IMG/VR virus record: IMGVR_UViG_2713896899_000006
Span: 1 to 24,900 of that record
Source of the DNA: a virus
Lineage: Duplodnaviria > Heunggongvirae > Uroviricota > Caudoviricetes
DNA: 24,900 bases
Reading direction: 5' to 3' (one strand)
In this document: piece after piece, positions 519 to 5,188 of the stretch
How positions within the stretch are numbered: position 1 is the first letter of the stretch
How the letters are laid out: every line of letters starts with the position of its first letter
Notes under the pieces: generated by a model
Seen by the model: only the letters and a program-made list of their open reading frames with translations
What the model was told of the DNA's origin: nothing
The model's database searches: none
Program-made: the position numbers and the translations under genes

Positions 519-778
519 ACGCATCAAAATGTCAGGTTAATGGCAACAAGATAGAACCGTGCGCGGCTTTGGCAAAATCTCTCGAATATGGAAATCCAAC
601 ATTCAAGAGTAAAGGCATATTTATCCCGGAACGTGTGAACATAAACACCGGCGAGTCAGGCATAGATATTGCTCAAATTCACTCTGGGCAATATATCGGT
701 CGTGGTGTTGCAATGTGTTTTTGCCCGTTCTGTGGTGAAAGTCTGAAAACGTGGGAGAACAGAAATGAAAGAAATTAG
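515..778 (+). CDS. hypothetical small phage protein, 87 aa, with CxxC motif near C-terminus
   Basis: GTG at 515 overlaps upstream stop (GTGA) and sits 7 nt after a strong AGGAGG; the ORF-track start at 437 is an alternative TTG with no RBS. Product contains CFCPFCGE. Confidence 0.4.
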   Translation: MNASKCQVNGNKIEPCAALAKSLEYGNPTFKSKGIFIPERVNINTGESGIDIAQIHSGQYIGRGVAMCFCPFCGESLKTWENRNERN

Positions 779-1076
779 AGAAATACCAGTAGTACGTGAT
801 GAATATGGCTGCTGGACGCATCCTGAATATGAAAAATTCTGTGATGGTAGAGAACATATTTCAACGGAAGAGTTTAACGCATGGATGGAGGAAAATAAAC
901 TTCAATACGTCCTCTGCTTCAGAGACGAAGGATGTGCTGACTTTGATGCTTGTGATGCTGATATTTCTGCATGGGAACCGGAACGACCAGAGGGCGATGG
1001 ATGGTTTATTGGTTCAATACATGACACCGAAGATGGCCCGGTTTGTGTCTGGTTGCGAAATAAAGCTGAAGCGTAA
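765..1076 (+). CDS. hypothetical phage protein, 103 aa, acidic and Cys-containing
   Basis: ATG at 765 with GGGAGA 6 nt upstream; overlaps previous gene by 14 nt; followed by a hairpin terminator region. Confidence 0.5.
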   Translation: MKEIREIPVVRDEYGCWTHPEYEKFCDGREHISTEEFNAWMEENKLQYVLCFRDEGCADFDACDADISAWEPERPEGDGWFIGSIHDTEDGPVCVWLRNKAEA

Positions 1077-1180
1077 AGGCGATAAATCACCTGACAACAA
1101 AACACTGAAAATTTAAATCAGAAGTGATTTTTATTAAATCCTTAACCGGAGGGGTTCCTGCACCCTCAAAACATCAGGAG

Positions 1181-1198
1181 GCCGCCCGAAAGGGCGGC
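1181..1198. terminator. GC-rich hairpin (gccgccc-gaaa-gggcggc) between convergent genes; probable bidirectional terminator
   Basis: Perfect 7-bp GC stem with GAAA loop lying between the + gene ending at 1076 and the minus gene ending at 1210; on the minus strand it is followed by a T-rich tract (ctcctgatgtttt). Confidence 0.5.
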
Positions 1199-1209
1199 TG
1201 TTCCGCTGT

Positions 1210-1764
1210 TCAATTATCTAAAATTGTGCTAAACCTTTTGATTACCATTAAGAACGTTATAACAGTGATAAAAAAGGATGTATAGGCTAAAAAGCTAACA
1301 ATATATGCAGGTGCGCGAAAATACCATTTCATTAAATCCACTGCATTGTCAGGCAGGAAATATATTATCACTGAAAATATAACCAATACTATTGAAGTTA
1401 ATATTGCATAAGCGACGTTGTGGCATAACTGCTCATATATGGTTTTGTTAGTGTTTAATGATATCAATTTGTCTCGGGATTTGTGTCCTTCAATTATGTC
1501 TGATATCTTAGTAATGGTTTTTTGTTTTTGTTCATAAATCATTATTACTGCACTCATTAATAGTGCTGTTGTAATAGCCCCGAAGTTAACGAAGACGGAA
1601 GCAATTGCCGGTTTCATTATTCCGTATGTCCAGCACAGAACGAAAGAAAGAGATAGCGGAACAATAAAATGTACGATAATGTCGCTCATCAACATTGTTC
1701 CACGCTGATCTGACATTGTTTTGTAGTGTTTTATTATTACACCCAGCACATTTATTTTATTCAT
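1210..1764 (-). CDS. integral membrane protein, 184 aa, about four predicted TM helices; downstream gene of the AT-rich antisense cassette (candidate effector)
   Basis: Four hydrophobic stretches read by eye (IIVHFIVPLSLSFVLCWTYGI; AIASVFVNFGAITTALLMSAVIMIY; VAYAILTSIVLVIFSVIIYFL; YIVSFLAYTSFFITVITFLMVI). Start ATG overlaps upstream stop as ATGA (1761-1764); AGGGG Shine-Dalgarno upstream on the minus strand. Visibly AT-rich codon usage unlike neighbours. Confidence 0.7.
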   Translation of the reverse strand: MNKINVLGVIIKHYKTMSDQRGTMLMSDIIVHFIVPLSLSFVLCWTYGIMKPAIASVFVNFGAITTALLMSAVIMIYEQKQKTITKISDIIEGHKSRDKLISLNTNKTIYEQLCHNVAYAILTSIVLVIFSVIIYFLPDNAVDLMKWYFRAPAYIVSFLAYTSFFITVITFLMVIKRFSTILDN

Positions 1765-2693
1765 ATGATCACCCCTTTGTTTCCGCTATGCAGTTCTAAC
1801 AATATATCATTAGAAAGGTTTTTTATCGTGTCATGAAGTGCTGTTAGATCAGGTATGCCTGTTAATGGGTCGATTTTTAGATCATTATCATCTAACTCTG
1901 CGGAAATTCCTTTTTTTAGTATGGTATCATAATTGAAAACGACAGTCCGACTGCCGAGCTGTAAGCTTACTTTTATTGCATCACATTTATCTTCAATAAT
2001 CTCAATGATGTTTCCTATATTCTTGTTTCTTAAATCCCTGAAACTTCCGAACATGCCATCGTTTGCTTTTATTATTAAGTCTGTCTTGATGTTTGTTTTG
2101 TTTTGACCAAAGGAATCAGCAATGTCTTTTGGTGCTTTATATCCTTGAGCCTTAATTTGTTTTAATTCGGAATTGAGAATATATTGAGGGATTTTCTTAT
2201 GATGTAATGGATTGATTCTTGCTTCGAGTTGAAATTTGTTTTTTAGATATTCAGTGATAGAATCAGAAAGGACACCTCGAGCAGAAATATTATCGCAAGA
2301 ATGGAATGCAATAATTCCTTCTTCAAGGGTGTCTGGTAGGTATATTAAAATATAACGTTCTTTGAGTGTTACATCATAAGCAGTTGTCCTGTAGTGGATT
2401 TTTTTGAGTTTTACATCCTTTATTTCACTACTTTCTCCATATTTCCCAACTTTTATATAACCATATATAATTTTCTTTGTGTTATCAAAGTGAAGTTTAG
2501 CGTGTTGTTCTAGAGATATTTTAGTTTTGGATACGCCAAACTCGATGGGGGTGTTTTTATATAGAGTAAAATAATCAACAAAAAGTTCATATGCCGTTTT
2601 TTTATTACTTAAACCCAATTCATTAAGCTTTTTGCTGGCTCGACTGCCTTTATGGGTCAATACGCGGAATGAATAGAAATTAACGCTGTGCAT
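1761..2693 (-). CDS. soluble protein of unknown function, about 310 aa; upstream gene of the AT-rich antisense cassette (candidate sensor/enzyme)
   Basis: Long minus-strand ORF (track 1761..2711). I place the start at the ATG at 2693 because AAGGA lies 6 nt upstream on the minus strand, whereas the ATG at 2711 has no RBS. Lysine/isoleucine-rich and AT-rich. No catalytic motif recognised. Confidence 0.65.
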   Translation of the reverse strand: MHSVNFYSFRVLTHKGSRASKKLNELGLSNKKTAYELFVDYFTLYKNTPIEFGVSKTKISLEQHAKLHFDNTKKIIYGYIKVGKYGESSEIKDVKLKKIHYRTTAYDVTLKERYILIYLPDTLEEGIIAFHSCDNISARGVLSDSITEYLKNKFQLEARINPLHHKKIPQYILNSELKQIKAQGYKAPKDIADSFGQNKTNIKTDLIIKANDGMFGSFRDLRNKNIGNIIEIIEDKCDAIKVSLQLGSRTVVFNYDTILKKGISAELDDNDLKIDPLTGIPDLTALHDTIKNLSNDILLELHSGNKGVII

Positions 2694-3119
2694 GAAAGTC
2701 CTTTTGAACATATAGGAATATACTAGAACATAAATAGATGCAATGTATAAAGGAAAAGCTACCGCAGGGCGAACTCACCCACCGATAGCTCTTAACTGGT
2801 TGTTTGTAAAAGATAATACATAAATAGGGGGCTGTGTAAAGAGGTAAGCATCGTCAGGGCAGGGGAGATGTGTTAGGCGATATTGGTAAAATTTACGTTG
2901 AGGATAAAAACGGTTTGCGTGAAAAGAAGAGTTAAGTAAAAATCGCTGCGGGTGCTTGAGGCTATCTGTCTCAGGCATGAACACCAAAAGGCAGATAGAG
3001 AAAAGCCCCAGCTAACATTACGCGTCTTGCAGGACGCTTAACATTAATCTGAGGCTCAATCCATGCTGAACACATGTAGGTTAGCCTCTTACGTGCCGAA
3101 AGGCAAGGAGAAGCAGGCT
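2694..3119. promoter_or_regulatory. divergent control region between the antisense cassette and hok; contains the structured hok leader (inverted repeats) and presumably promoters for both units
   Basis: About 425 bp without a convincing ORF; inverted repeats ctatctg...cagatag (about 2963-3000) and gaggct...agcctc (about 3050-3088) just upstream of hok, consistent with the folded leader of hok-family mRNAs. Promoters not individually resolved. Confidence 0.35.
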
Positions 3120-3275
3120 ATGAAGCAGCAAAAGGCGATGTTAGTCGCCCTGATCGTCATCTGTTTAACCGTCATTGTTACGGCACTGGTAACGAGGAAA
3201 GACCTCTGCGAGGTACGAATCCGAACCGGTCAGACGGAGGTCGCTGTCTTCACAGCTTACGAACCTGAGGAGTAA
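3120..3275 (+). CDS. hok: Hok/Gef-family type I toxin (small membrane-depolarising peptide), 51 aa
   Basis: Product MKQQKAMLVALIVICLTVIVTALVTRKDLCEVRIRTGQTEVAVFTAYEPEE matches, from memory, E. coli HokD/RelF and Gef almost residue for residue; AAGGAG RBS upstream; an in-frame upstream ATG at 3063 gives the 70-aa ORF in the track. Confidence 0.85.
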   Translation: MKQQKAMLVALIVICLTVIVTALVTRKDLCEVRIRTGQTEVAVFTAYEPEE

Positions 3276-3343
3276 GAGACCAGGCGAGGGAGAAATCCCT
3301 CGCCACCTCTGATGAGTCAGGCATCCTCAACGCACCCGCACCT

Positions 3344-3366
3344 AACCCGCTTCGGCGGGTTTTTTA
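3344..3366 (+). terminator. rho-independent terminator (aacccgc-ttcg-gcgggtt + T6) ending the hok transcript
   Basis: GC stem with UUCG-type tetraloop followed by tttttt, about 70 nt after the hok stop. Confidence 0.75.
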
Positions 3367-3527
3367 CTTTTACAGATCAAGTTTTAGCCGACTCCTCCAT
3401 TAAACCGACCTTCGTTTGTTGATAAGCGGGTATGCCTGACTAGAATCGATGCACTTAAGTAGCGCGCAGGGATAAGAGGGATGGACCCTGAGAAGGGAAG
3501 AGCTATTTATCTGGAAGGATTCTGAAG

Positions 3528-3701
3528 ATGAAAATCGAAGAATTGCGTGAAATTTTTAGTGAAAATGGCCTCTATGCTGTGCGCGTTGAGAATGGAGACG
3601 TTATCTACACAACGTTAATTCCTGATGATCATGTGATTTTATCTATCGAGGCGTTCATTGAATACCTGGAAAGGCTCGGTTTCAAGGTGGTTCGGGAATG
3701 A
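3528..3701 (+). CDS. small hypothetical protein, 57 aa (below the ORF-track length cutoff)
   Basis: ATG at 3528 with GGAAGGA about 8 nt upstream; product MKIEELREIFSENGLYAVRVENGDVIYTTLIPDDHVILSIEAFIEYLERLGFKVVRE has a protein-like composition; sits in an otherwise unexplained gap between hok and the DUF1367-like gene. Confidence 0.4.
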   Translation: MKIEELREIFSENGLYAVRVENGDVIYTTLIPDDHVILSIEAFIEYLERLGFKVVRE

Positions 3702-3760
3702 GTTATAATTCGTAAGCCAGCCTGAACAACTGGCAACCTACAGCGCCATTGGAGATAGCA

Positions 3761-4375
3761 ATGGCGCATATACAACTGGTCAAACAAACTTCTTCTGGTT
3801 TACTTCTTCCGGCGACGCCGGAGAGTTGCGATTTTCTGCATCAAATCAAAATAGGCGAGTGGATACACGCTGATTTTAAGCGCGTTCGTAACTACGCATT
3901 CCATAAGCGTTTTTTTAAACTTCTGCAACTCGGATTCGATTACTGGACTCCGAACGGTGGGGCGATCACACCTCGCGAACGAGAAATGGTGTTCGGCTTC
4001 GTTGATTACCTGTGTGAATCAGTAGGCAGGGAACATACGCCAGCTCTGAGTGATGCCGCGGAACAATATCTGAATACCGTTGCGACACGCAGAACCCAGG
4101 ATATGGCATTGCTCAAATCATTTGACGCTTTCCGCGAGTGGGTGACCATTCAGGCCGGCTTCTACACCGAGCATTTTTATCCAGATGGTAGCCGCGGGCG
4201 TCGGGCGAAGTCCATTGCTTTTGCGAATATGGACGAAACTGAATTTCAACAGGTTTATAAAGCCGTACTTAACGTCCTGTGGAACTGGATCCTGTTCCGT
4301 AAATTCTCCTCTCTGGAGGAAGTCGAAAATGTGGCGCGCAGCTGCTGGAGTTTGCGTAATGGTGGATTTACGTAA
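3761..4375 (+). CDS. DUF1367-like (YbcN-like) lambdoid nin-region protein, 204 aa
   Basis: ATG at 3761 with GGAGA 5 nt upstream (the track start at 3749 is an alternative TTG); sequence resembles the YbcN/DUF1367 proteins of E. coli lambdoid prophages from memory; 3' end overlaps the next gene. Confidence 0.6.
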   Translation: MAHIQLVKQTSSGLLLPATPESCDFLHQIKIGEWIHADFKRVRNYAFHKRFFKLLQLGFDYWTPNGGAITPREREMVFGFVDYLCESVGREHTPALSDAAEQYLNTVATRRTQDMALLKSFDAFREWVTIQAGFYTEHFYPDGSRGRRAKSIAFANMDETEFQQVYKAVLNVLWNWILFRKFSSLEEVENVARSCWSLRNGGFT

Positions 4376-4649
4376 AGCGGCAAAAGGTCAGATGTGTACA
4401 GTCAGAATTCCTGGCTACTGCAATCACAATCCCGAAACATCCGTGCTGGCGCATTACCGACTGGCGGGAACGTGCGGAACAGCGATAAAGCCACACGATA
4501 TGCAGGCAGCGATTGCCTGTAGCTCGTGCCACGATTTAATCGACGGGCGGGTAAAAACCAGTGATTACACCAAAGAAGAATTGCGCCTGATGCATGCAGA
4601 AGGTGTTTTTCGCACACAAGAAATCTGGAGAAAGGAAGGTTATTTATGA
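4359..4649 (+). CDS. DUF1364-like (YbcO-like) putative Cys-rich nuclease, 96 aa
   Basis: ATG at 4359 with GGAG upstream; Cys-rich product (CTVRIPGYCNHNPE...CSSCHDLIDGR) resembling YbcO-family proteins; the track ORF 4185..4649 starts at an upstream out-of-context codon; stop overlaps the Q start (ATGA). Confidence 0.65.
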   Translation: MVDLRKAAKGQMCTVRIPGYCNHNPETSVLAHYRLAGTCGTAIKPHDMQAAIACSSCHDLIDGRVKTSDYTKEELRLMHAEGVFRTQEIWRKEGYL

Positions 4650-5188
4650 TTTACCCAACAAATACAGGCAAAAGCGGGGAACACCTTCGTCTCACCACGC
4701 TGGAAAGTGTCTGGATTCAGGGAAAACTGCGTATGTGGGGGCGCTGGTCGTATATTGGCGGCGGCAGGTCAGGGAATATGTTCAACCAGTTGCTGGCGTC
4801 AAAAAAATTGACGAAAACAGCAATCAATGAAGCCCTGCGCAGGATGAAAAAAGCAGGAATAGAGAAGCCGGAGCTGGAAGCATTTTTACGTGAGATGATC
4901 AACGGGAAGCAAAAGAGCTGGCTGGCGCATTGTACTGATGCAGAGGCGTTATGTATTGATCGGGTTATAAGTGAGGTGCTGACAGAACATCCGGGATTGA
5001 TTAGCGTCCTTCGACAACGGTATGAGGGGCGGGGGATGAGTAAGCTGAAAATGGCACAACAGTTAAATGAGTATCGCCCTGGCTGGAGCTTGAAAACTTG
5101 CAGAAATCGCATTGACGCATGGTTGAGTGTTGCTGAGCACATTCTGTATATACCAATGAAATTAGCGTTATGCGGAGAAAGCCAATAA
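4646..5188 (+). CDS. Q: phage late-gene antitermination protein Q (Phage_antitermQ-like), 180 aa
   Basis: AAGGAAGG RBS; position immediately upstream of a promoter/terminator region and the lysis cassette; sequence resembles Q proteins of enterobacterial lambdoid prophages (recall, not search). Confidence 0.65.
   Translation: MIYPTNTGKSGEHLRLTTLESVWIQGKLRMWGRWSYIGGGRSGNMFNQLLASKKLTKTAINEALRRMKKAGIEKPELEAFLREMINGKQKSWLAHCTDAEALCIDRVISEVLTEHPGLISVLRQRYEGRGMSKLKMAQQLNEYRPGWSLKTCRNRIDAWLSVAEHILYIPMKLALCGESQ

What the first reader, a model, noticed from the sequence alone, without database searches (positions are those of the whole stretch)
2694..3366. hok-family type I toxin locus divergent from the antisense cassette, with structured leader and terminator
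The 51-aa product is a textbook Hok/Gef peptide. The upstream leader contains paired inverted repeats where the hok mRNA fold and the Sok antisense target are expected, and a UUCG-loop terminator follows. Placing a post-segregational/abortive toxin next to the candidate defence cassette makes this segment a small island of host-killing functions. The sok antisense RNA and any mok reading frame cannot be placed confidently by eye; an in-frame upstream ATG at 3063 gives a 70-codon ORF of unclear relevance.
Basis: partly seen in the sequence, partly recalled or inferred. Interest (0 to 1): 0.45.

Follow-up and report, generated by a model that had tools for sequence, protein, structure and literature searches.

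The report
Intact prophage hok/mok/sok toxin-antitoxin locus
This is a complete copy of the well-known hok/sok killer-peptide and antisense-RNA module that most E. coli prophages carry, so the finding is correct but ordinary; its one notable feature is that it borders a slot where related prophages keep anti-phage defence genes.

Summary
Window 2896/2930-3365 is an intact hok/mok/sok type I toxin-antitoxin module of the prophage hokW-sokW / hokD type.

- **Toxin:** Hok (51 aa, 3120-3275) matches Pfam HOK_GEF at E=7e-24.
- **Leader:** it matches Rfam RF01794 at 117 bits.
- **Sok:** the antisense RNA maps to 3071->3001 on the minus strand. Its promoter hexamers are identical to those of sokW, which has been tested experimentally.
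- **Fold:** the mRNA 5' end (tac, 2950-2961) pairs with the 3' fbi element (3325-3337). This fold is supported by compensatory changes in 36 homologues.
- **Terminator:** a UUCG-loop terminator (3344-3365) closes the module.

The DNA is about 93% identical to hokW-sokW. The exact Hok and Mok proteins are already in NCBI, and 4934 of 5426 complete E. coli genomes carry a match. The locus is therefore already known.

Only 2694-2895 lies outside the module; it is the neighbouring gene's 5' region.

One side result: the stretch upstream of this module is hypervariable among lambdoid prophages and often holds known defence systems (Kiwa, Septu, OLD, PD-T7-1 and others). The unannotated two-gene minus-strand cassette at 1210-2711 occupies that slot.

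The parts
2915..2920 (+). hok promoter -35 (TTGCGT; TTTGCG one base to the left is an alternative reading)
   Evidence: Inferred. A TTGnCG-type hexamer sits about 17 nt upstream of the -10 in loci whose further upstream sequence is unrelated. It is below the threshold of the consensus scan.
2938..2943 (+). hok promoter -10 (AAAAAT within TAAAAAT; the relatives have TAGAAT)
   Evidence: In nearly all relatives, TAGAAT, TAAAAT or TAAGAT lies 6 nt before the GGG that starts the RNA. The window has one extra A in this run. This is an inferred promoter, not a mapped one.
2950..3365 (+). full-length hok mRNA (about 416 nt), from the inferred start to the terminator T-run
   Evidence: The Rfam model starts at 2950 and the terminator is at 3344-3365. 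The MFE is -165 kcal/mol, z=-6.3 against shuffles. The fold is supported across 36 homologues: 85.5% of cells are paired against 38-47% when partners are slid, and 32 pairs change on both sides against 10-19.
2950..2961 (+). tac element (GGGUGCUUGAGG) at the mRNA 5' end; it pairs with fbi in the full-length RNA and with 3003-3009 in the shortened RNA
   Evidence: Pairing is seen in the MFE folds. The duplex recurs at the same place, 41-56 nt after the stop codon, in relatives. Compensatory U-A to C-G changes occur in 8 sequences at alignment pair 4/406.
2950..3009 (+). alternative 5' hairpin, formed once fbi is removed
   Evidence: It forms in the fold of 2950-3318, equals helix 1 of the Rfam model, and corresponds to inverted repeat I1.
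3001..3071 (-). Sok antisense RNA (71 nt): 5' single-stranded tail 3071..3058, long hairpin 3057..3003, U-tract to 3001
   Evidence: The sokW annotation of 933W was mapped through the alignment; 67 of 71 nt are identical. The minus-strand fold is -31.6 kcal/mol, z=-4.7. SokW RNA and its antitoxin activity were shown in PMC8621323.
3078..3083 (-). sok promoter -10 (TAACCT on the minus strand)
   Evidence: Identical to 933W. The paper's promoter-less sokW construct carries substitutions around the -10 element. My reading of its mutagenesis primers YO-421/422 places them on this hexamer.
3101..3106 (-). sok promoter -35 (TTGCCT on the minus strand), 17-nt spacer; overlaps the hok Shine-Dalgarno region
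   Evidence: Read from the sequence. It is invariant or nearly invariant in the 36-sequence alignment.
3051..3088 (+). Sok-target hairpin of the hok leader; it holds the mok SD (GAGG, 3051-3054), the mok AUG (3063) and the loop CUGAACA (3066-3072), which begins with a YUNR motif (CUGA)
   Evidence: Helix 3 of the Rfam alignment. Its complementarity to the Sok 5' tail is direct, because Sok is encoded on the opposite strand. The role of the YUNR U-turn comes from established knowledge of R1 hok/sok.
3063..3275 (+). mok, 70 codons, an in-frame N-terminal extension of hok
   Evidence: ORF list. Same layout as mokW in 933W. The frame is open in most of the 61 genome loci. The exact protein is in NCBI on 185 contigs.
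3105..3110 (+). hok Shine-Dalgarno sequence (AAGGAG), 9 nt before the hok AUG
   Evidence: Read from the sequence. Conserved in the alignment.
3120..3275 (+). hok, 51-aa membrane toxin (MKQQKAMLVALIVICLTVIVTALVTRKDLCEVRIRTGQTEVAVFTAYEPEE)
   Evidence: Pfam HOK_GEF E=7.2e-24. PHROG 251 E=7e-33. 47% identity to R1-type Hok. The exact sequence is named HokD in NCBI and was seen on 998 contigs, where the tool's counter is capped at 1000.
3283..3304 (+). conserved 3'-UTR hairpin
   Evidence: Inverted repeat I5. Helix 16 is 96.6% paired with 3 compensatory pairs. The window's A3287/U3300 is itself a double change from the usual G-C.
3325..3337 (+). fbi element (CCUCAACGCACCC), complementary to tac with one bulged C
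3344..3365 (+). intrinsic terminator: 7-bp stem, UUCG loop, six U
   Evidence: Terminator scan. It is shared by most Escherichia and Shigella prophage copies but not by 933W, where similarity ends at about 3347. It is the right-hand boundary of similarity in 41 of 80 viral loci.

Best explanation
The locus is a complete hok/mok/sok type I toxin-antitoxin module carried as a self-contained cassette, with its own promoter and terminator, in the early-right (nin) region of a lambdoid prophage.

**Proposed mechanism** (the molecular steps are inferred by homology; only the sequence features are shown here):
1. A weak constitutive promoter (-35 at 2915-2920, -10 at 2938-2943) makes a stable mRNA of about 416 nt (2950-3365).
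2. In this full-length form the 5' tac element (2950-2961) is paired with the 3' fbi element (3325-3337). The RNA can then be neither translated nor bound by Sok.
3. Slow 3' trimming removes the terminator and fbi. The 5' end refolds into the local hairpin 2950-3009, and the mok ribosome-binding site and Sok-target hairpin (3051-3088) are exposed.
4. While the cell keeps transcribing, the strong convergent sok promoter (-35 at 3106..3101, -10 at 3083..3078) makes the unstable 71-nt Sok RNA (3071->3001). Its single-stranded 5' tail pairs with the target loop and the mok start codon. This blocks mok translation, and hence the coupled hok translation, and marks the duplex for RNase III.
5. When Sok supply stops, Sok decays first. 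Candidate triggers are loss of the element, a general transcription shut-off by an infecting phage, or prophage induction.
6. mok and hok are then translated, and the 51-aa Hok peptide inserts into the inner membrane and collapses it.

In a prophage, the most likely biological outcome is the one shown for the 93%-identical hokW-sokW: earlier membrane damage and higher phage release after SOS induction. Prophage addiction and exclusion of superinfecting phages are other possible roles of the same switch.
For: **Shown here**
- Toxin family membership.
- Full-length match of the leader to the Rfam family. The same family matches the R1-type, 933W, Photorhabdus and Erwinia loci on the hok-sense strand.
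- About 93% DNA identity to 933W hokW/mokW/sokW over about 2890-3347, with both sok promoter hexamers, both ribosome-binding sites and both start codons unchanged.
- End pairing in the full-length fold (z=-6.3), and refolding of the 5' end when 48 nt are removed from the 3' end.
- tac-fbi complementarity kept at a fixed distance after the stop codon in Escherichia, Kluyvera, Photorhabdus, Pantoea and Erwinia, with compensatory changes.
- For the whole structure, 85.5% of cells are paired against 38-47% in slid controls, and 32 pairs change on both sides against 10-19.
- The Sok strand folds as a tail plus a terminator hairpin (z=-4.7).
- The hok promoter hexamers are conserved at fixed spacing in front of unrelated upstream sequences.
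- The window does not deviate at any conserved position except for synonymous or compensatory changes.

**From the literature** (PMC8621323)
- HokW is toxic.
- sokW counteracts it from its own promoter, partly through RNase III and Hfq.
- sokW RNA disappears and HokW appears in the inner membrane after mitomycin C, in a RecA-dependent way.
- Deleting the locus halves phage release.
Against: - Nothing about expression, RNA ends, processing or toxicity was measured for this copy.
- The hok -10 differs from the TAGAAT of its relatives by an extra A (TAAAAAT). The effect on promoter strength is unknown.
- Both promoters fall below the threshold of the consensus scan.
- The Rfam 'sok' model is built in the hok-sense orientation and is 157 nt long. 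The hit therefore locates the leader, not the antisense gene itself.
- The MFE of the shortened RNA did not reproduce the Rfam target hairpin exactly.
- hokW in 933W lies in a different part of the phage genome and lacks this terminator, so its biological role may not transfer.
Confidence: 0.93

Rival explanations
1. The locus is a decayed, silent hok relic, like the chromosomal hok copies of E. coli K-12. The peptide frame survives, but regulation or expression is broken, so the locus does nothing.
For: - K-12-type hokD copies in the same search lack the whole leader; their similarity starts only at window 3106.
- Several relatives are frameshifted or truncated: L013, L039, L049, L057, L062-L064.
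- The window's hok -10 carries a 1-nt insertion relative to the TAGAAT of its relatives.
Against: - All elements are present and in register: promoters, tac, fbi, mok, both ribosome-binding sites, the Sok hairpin and the terminator.
- The window's differences from conserved columns are one synonymous change, one conservative I9V change and one compensatory pair.
Confidence: 0.05
2. The 3' end of the locus (3284-3365) is an independent Hfq-binding small RNA of the IsrK type rather than only the hok 3' UTR.
For: There is a sub-threshold Rfam match to isrK over the full 77-nt model: 31.2 bits, E=1.4e-4 in the 1.3-kb search.
Against: - The score is well below the family's gathering score of 50.
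- The shared letters are a GC hairpin, a spacer and a terminator, which is a generic architecture.
- IsrK has its own promoter and lies downstream of the Q-like antQ gene in Gifsy-1, and that paper never mentions hok (PMC4825925).
- The same stretch is explained by the conserved 3'-UTR hairpin, fbi and the terminator.
Confidence: 0.02

Closest known systems
hokW-mokW-sokW of Stx2 phages 933W / Sakai prophage 5 (shown experimentally to be a type I TA system; PMC8621323)
   Same: - About 93% DNA identity from about 2890 to 3347.
- Identical mok length (70 codons) and hok length (51 codons).
- Identical sok -10 and -35, identical ribosome-binding sites, and identical tac and fbi.
- Sok is 67/71 identical.
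   Different: - The Hok C-terminus differs (FTAYEPEE here, FVDYESEK in HokW), and residue 9 is V rather than I.
- This copy has a UUCG terminator directly after fbi, which 933W lacks.
- This copy sits in the nin region, next to a Ren-like gene and DUF1367/YbcO genes. In 933W the locus lies near one end of the phage record, beside the very large L0134 gene.
- The hok -10 is TAAAAAT instead of TAGAAT.
HokD (RelF) of the E. coli K-12 Qin prophage and the NCBI 'HokD' protein family
   Same: The toxin is 50/51 identical to WP_000813254-type HokD. The exact window sequence is itself named HokD in NCBI.
   Different: K-12-type hokD loci lack the leader, mok and sok; their similarity begins only at window 3106, inside the hok ribosome-binding site. 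This copy has the complete regulatory set.
hok/sok (parB) of plasmid R1, the founding member
   Same: - Same gene order and the same Pfam and Rfam families.
- Same logic of 5'-3' end pairing, antisense control through an upstream overlapping frame, and similar mRNA size. The window's is about 416 nt; R1's 398 nt is from my own knowledge.
   Different: - Only 47% protein identity.
- DNA similarity to plasmid hok loci outside the hokD type is limited to short stretches of the leader.
- The Sok hairpin here is longer, through a 16-nt insertion relative to the Rfam consensus.
- The host replicon is a prophage, not a plasmid.
hokC/mokC/sokC (gef) type chromosomal loci
   Same: Same architecture, with an in-frame mok and a tac-fbi pairing at the same distance from the stop codon.
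   Different: About 75% DNA identity. A shorter Sok hairpin, a different mok N-terminus (MLNTCRVPLTDRKVKEK...) and a different terminator.

Membership tests
Hok/Gef toxin family (Pfam PF01848) | A peptide of about 50 aa with an N-terminal transmembrane helix and the conserved TRKxLCE core, scoring above the Pfam gathering threshold | tested here: met
   83.6 bits against a cut-off of 22, E=7.2e-24, covering model positions 1-42 of 42. PHROG 251 at E=7e-33. NCBIfam Hok models match only below their strict cut-offs, 49 against 73 bits.
hok/sok type I TA locus | A structured hok leader homologous to the family's leader (Rfam RF01794) | tested here: met
   117.4 bits against a gathering score of 59, over the full model 1-157. 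The same model hits the R1-type locus at 87 bits in the same orientation relative to hok.
hok/sok type I TA locus | An overlapping upstream reading frame (mok) through which hok translation is controlled | tested here: met
   The ORF 3063-3275 is present with an SD (GAGG) 8 nt upstream, and its frame is conserved in relatives. The translational coupling itself was not tested.
hok/sok type I TA locus | A cis-encoded antisense RNA gene (sok) with its own promoter and terminator, overlapping the mok start | tested here: met
   At sequence level only. The promoter hexamers are identical to those of sokW, whose function was tested, and there is a terminator hairpin plus U-tract on the minus strand. 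The transcript was not observed for this copy.
hok/sok type I TA locus | Long-range 5'-3' end pairing (tac-fbi) that locks the full-length mRNA, with an alternative 5' hairpin after 3' trimming | tested here: met
   MFE folds. A conserved position and compensatory changes in 36 homologues.
hok/sok type I TA locus | Hok toxicity, neutralisation by Sok, and differential RNA stability | not testable with these tools
   Shown for the 93%-identical hokW-sokW (PMC8621323) but not for this copy.
IsrK sRNA (Rfam RF01394) | A score at or above the family's gathering threshold | tested here: not met
   31.2 bits against 50.

The most novel reading that the evidence does not exclude
The hok/mok/sok module is more than a passenger. 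It may be the fixed right-hand flank of a defence-gene hotspot in lambdoid prophages, with a Ren-like gene on the left and swappable cargo in between. The module could supply the conserved homology for cassette exchange and perhaps stabilise or back up the cargo. On that reading, the two unannotated minus-strand genes at 1210-2711 (phrog_15250 and phrog_15676) are a new anti-phage system. The hotspot pattern itself is well supported here. That the window's cassette is a defence system, that hok cooperates with it, and that the hotspot is undescribed are all unproven.
Probability: 0.25. Interest if true: 0.55.

Novelty: already known. Interest (0 to 1): 0.12.

Why it matters
For the hok locus itself, the value is annotation. 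The analysis turns an 'ORF of unclear relevance' and an unplaced antisense RNA into a fully mapped, intact module of a system whose biology is established. It also shows that this copy is the complete form of what E. coli K-12 carries only as the truncated hokD.

The practical gain is a landmark. Because the module is so conserved and so sharply bounded, it marks one edge of a variable slot that in related prophages holds Kiwa, Septu-like, OLD, dCTP deaminase, PD-T7-1, PD-Lambda-2 and several candidate systems. That gives a concrete reason to test the neighbouring unknown two-gene cassette for anti-phage activity.

Tried and rejected
1. **IsrK-like sRNA at 3284-3365.** The score is below threshold, the architecture is generic, and IsrK has a different genomic context. 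Rejected.

2. **A perfect 10-nt inverted repeat, 2896-2905 / 3323-3332.** An upstream decoy for fbi in read-through transcripts was considered. About 0.25 such pairs are expected by chance in 727 nt (my estimate), and the upstream arm is not conserved in relatives, for example CGCTGGAGAT in 933W. Rejected as chance. Repeats I3, I6 and I7 are likewise short, A/T-rich or unconserved.

3. **The Rfam 'sok' hit as evidence for the strand of the antisense RNA.** The model is in hok-sense orientation in every locus, including the R1 type. It was therefore used only to place the leader.

4. **Known-family searches for the neighbouring cassette.** Pfam, PADLOC, NCBIfam and PDB sequences gave nothing. 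Only PHROGs of unknown function matched.

5. **Literature search for a described hok-flanked defence hotspot in lambdoid phages.** Nothing was found in the held library. The search was by keyword and is not exhaustive.

6. **Source organism.** The best E. coli matches to the locus are only 95-96% identical and a Shigella flexneri locus is 96%. The source was not pinned down.

7. **Not attempted.** Structure prediction and deep homology searches were not spent on the cassette, because it is outside this finding.

Full report
**What is there.** The region holds one short ORF of 51 codons (3120-3275, + strand) and an in-frame 70-codon ORF from an ATG at 3063.
- The 51-aa product matches Pfam HOK_GEF at E=7.2e-24, 83.6 bits against a cut-off of 22. 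It also matches PHROG 251, 'MokW-like host killing', at E=7e-33.
- An Rfam scan of the whole 24.9-kb window returns a single hit above threshold. It is RF01794 ('sok') at 2950-3125 on the + strand: 117.4 bits against 59, over the full model.
- A consensus scan finds one terminator, AACCCGC-TTCG-GCGGGTT plus six T at 3344-3365.

**Which known locus it is.**
- Megablast against phage genomes finds 79 records. One is phage 933W, where the matching stretch is annotated mokW, hokW and 'SokW antisense RNA'.
- The pairwise alignment is about 93% identical from about 2890 to about 3347.
- Transferring the 933W annotation makes the 70-codon ORF mok. It has the same length and the same stop codon as hok, so it is an in-frame N-terminal extension. 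Sok maps to 3071->3001 on the minus strand, 67 of 71 nt identical.
- The sok -10 (TAACCT, 3083..3078) and -35 (TTGCCT, 3106..3101, 17-nt spacer) are unchanged.
- In the hokW-sokW study, substitutions around the -10 element of the sokW promoter exposed HokW toxicity. By my reading of the mutagenesis primers, those substitutions fall on this hexamer. sokW supplied in trans partly restored growth (PMC8621323).
- The exact 51-aa and 70-aa proteins are already in public databases. They are named HokD and Hok-family toxin, on 998 contigs (the tool's counter is capped at 1000) and 185 contigs.
- 4934 of 5426 complete E. coli genomes have a match to 2915-3366, with a median of two copies each.

**RNA anatomy.**
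- Full-length fold: the inferred mRNA (2950-3366) folds to -165 kcal/mol, z=-6.3. Its first 12 nt (tac, GGGUGCUUGAGG) pair with 3325-3337 (fbi, CCUCAACGCACCC, one bulged C).
- Shortened fold: removing the last 48 nt makes the 5' end refold into a local hairpin, 2950-3009. This is helix 1 of the Rfam model.
- Conservation of tac-fbi: in loci from Escherichia, Shigella, Kluyvera, Photorhabdus, Pantoea, Erwinia and others, the sequence best complementary to the 5' end lies at a fixed place 41-56 nt after the hok stop. It changes together with tac, for example GGGCGC with GCGCCC in Photorhabdus and GAAG with CUUC in Citrobacter.
- Test on 36 sequences: in the window's structure, 85.5% of cells are paired, against 38-47% when partners are slid by 1-3 columns. 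Thirty-two pairs change on both sides, against 10-19 in the slid controls.
- Sok strand: it folds as a 14-nt single-stranded 5' tail, a long hairpin (3057..3003) and a U-tract (z=-4.7).
- Sok target: the tail is complementary to 3058-3071. That stretch includes the mok AUG and most of the loop CUGAACA (3066-3072), whose first four bases fit the YUNR U-turn motif known from R1 hok/sok (established knowledge).
- Caveat: the Rfam model is 157 nt and hits the hok-sense strand in every locus, including an R1-type plasmid. It places the leader, not the antisense gene.

**Promoter and boundaries.**
- Promoter: upstream of the GGG start, relatives fall into several unrelated sequence families. Nearly all keep a TTGnCG-type hexamer, about 17 nt, TAGAAT (or TAAAAT, or TAAGAT), then 6 nt before GGG. 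This supports a hok promoter at 2915-2920 and 2938-2943. The window has TAAAAAT, one A longer; the consequence is unknown.
- Left boundary: similarity to 80 IMG/VR loci starts at 2896-2907 (23 loci) or at 2929-2963 (57 loci).
- Right boundary: similarity ends at 3357-3369, just after the terminator stem (43 loci), or at 3595-3602 (35 loci).
- The module is therefore a discrete promoter-to-terminator cassette. Positions 2694-2895 of the finding belong to the neighbour.
- Terminator: it is shared by most Escherichia and Shigella prophage copies. In 933W it is replaced, and hokC-type and Photorhabdus loci have different 3' ends.

**Integrity.**
- The window differs from columns conserved in at least 85% of relatives at only three places. 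One is a synonymous third-position change. The other two, A3287 and U3300, together form a compensatory A-U pair in the 3'-UTR hairpin.
- Compared with its closest relatives it has I9V in Hok and changes near the tip of the Sok hairpin.
- K-12-type hokD loci retain only the part from 3106 onward. Several other relatives are frameshifted.
- This copy is therefore the complete form, not a relic.

**How it most likely works.** By homology, this is the R1 and hokW mechanism.
- A stable, end-paired and translationally silent hok mRNA is slowly activated by 3' trimming.
- An unstable Sok RNA, made from a stronger promoter, pairs with the mok start region. It blocks the coupled translation of hok and triggers RNase III cleavage.
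- When Sok synthesis stops, Hok is made and damages the inner membrane.
- For hokW-sokW the documented trigger is RecA-dependent prophage induction. Sok RNA disappears, HokW appears about an hour before the endolysin, and deleting the locus halves phage release.
- In this window hok lies on the same strand as the Ren-like, DUF1367, YbcO, DUF1133, lysis and structural genes. Induced early-right transcription would therefore run into the sok promoter head-on. This is my inference for how induction could silence Sok; it is untested.
- Prophage addiction and exclusion of phages that shut off host transcription are other possible uses of the same switch.

**Context.**
- Surroundings: the window is part of a lambdoid prophage. 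The gene order is a Ren-like gene (45-518), two small ORFs, a two-gene minus-strand cassette (1210-1764 and 1761-2711, the latter annotated from 2693 in databases), hok, a small PHROG-340 ORF, DUF1367, YbcO and DUF1133, then lysis and morphogenesis genes.
- The cassette has no known family: it matches nothing in Pfam, PADLOC, NCBIfam or PDB sequences.
- The cassette is rare: only 21 of 5426 E. coli genomes cover 80% or more of window 1500-4700.
- The cassette is not tied to this hok allele: in E. coli JNU it is 98.5% identical, but the adjacent hok locus is only 85.5% identical.
- Upstream is variable, downstream is not: among 13 prophage-type genome loci the downstream flank is one family in 10, while the upstream flank falls into 9 families. 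Among 71 viral loci the proximal 1.2 kb upstream falls into 33 families.
- A Ren-like gene is the recurrent left flank, 0.85-2.6 kb away, in at least 14 of those contexts.
- The cargo is often defence: of 20 large cargo ORFs from different contexts, 11 match PADLOC families strongly. These are PDC-M68B, PDC-S06 (twice), PDC-S39, NsnA/PD-T4-2, Old, dCTP deaminase, PDC-S15, PD-Lambda-2_C, PtuA and KwaB. Three genome loci carry PD-T7-1, a RelA/SpoT-type PDC-S33 and KwaB.
- Limits of this evidence: the PDC families are candidate systems, not validated ones, and no matched control interval was scored.
- Taken together, the hok module borders a defence hotspot, and the window's unknown cassette occupies it. 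I found no paper in the held library that describes this hotspot.

**Verdict.** The finding is correct and now fully annotated, but it is a ubiquitous, already characterised element. Interest in the finding itself is low. The adjacent cassette is the part of this segment that deserves an experiment.

Noticed in passing
window 1210-2711 (minus strand): A two-gene cassette of 184 aa (phrog_15250) and 310/316 aa (phrog_15676). It has no match in Pfam, PADLOC, NCBIfam or PDB sequences. It is present in some Salmonella and in a few E. coli (21 of 5426 complete genomes). It lies in the slot where related prophages carry known defence systems, which makes it a candidate new anti-phage system by location.
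   Followed up: partly
window 519-2895, compared with L003, L005, L009 and L066-L145: The interval between a Ren-like gene and the hok module is hypervariable in lambdoid prophages, with 33 upstream contexts in 71 viral loci. It frequently holds defence genes: Kiwa KwaB, Septu PtuA, Old, dCTP deaminase, PD-T7-1, PD-Lambda-2_C, NsnA and several PDC candidates. I did not find it described in the papers searched.
   Followed up: partly
window 2937-2943: The inferred hok -10 is TAAAAAT. Nearly all related loci have TAGAAT, TAAAAT or TAAGAT at the same place. This is a one-base A-run expansion whose effect on promoter strength is unknown.
   Followed up: no
L030 1413-2763 (Photorhabdus temperata): Three hok leaders occur in tandem about 630 nt apart (Rfam hits at 1413, 2042 and 2660). 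Many Photorhabdus contigs carry hok loci, so the module is amplified in that genus.
   Followed up: no
L002 (E. coli JNU) 2701-4842: The same upstream cassette (98.5% identical) is joined to a different hok allele: 85.5% identical, a shorter Sok hairpin and a hokC-like mok N-terminus. This implies a recombination junction at or inside the hok promoter and leader.
   Followed up: partly
window 3528-3701: A small 57-aa ORF (phrog_340, unknown function) follows a promoter-like site at 3419-3446. The stretch up to about 3596 travels with the hok module in about half of the related viral loci.
   Followed up: no
L001 107-195 and L056 1884-1973: Above-threshold Rfam hits to sRNA-Xcc1 (RF02221) lie near hok loci in phage 933W and in Erwinia tracheiphila. 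There is none in the window.
   Followed up: no
phage hit H1 (PP818812.1): The best phage match to the locus (94.7% identical) is a record labelled Actinobacillus phage vB_Apl-pPE4. That is an unexpected host label for a sequence otherwise typical of Escherichia prophages.
   Followed up: no
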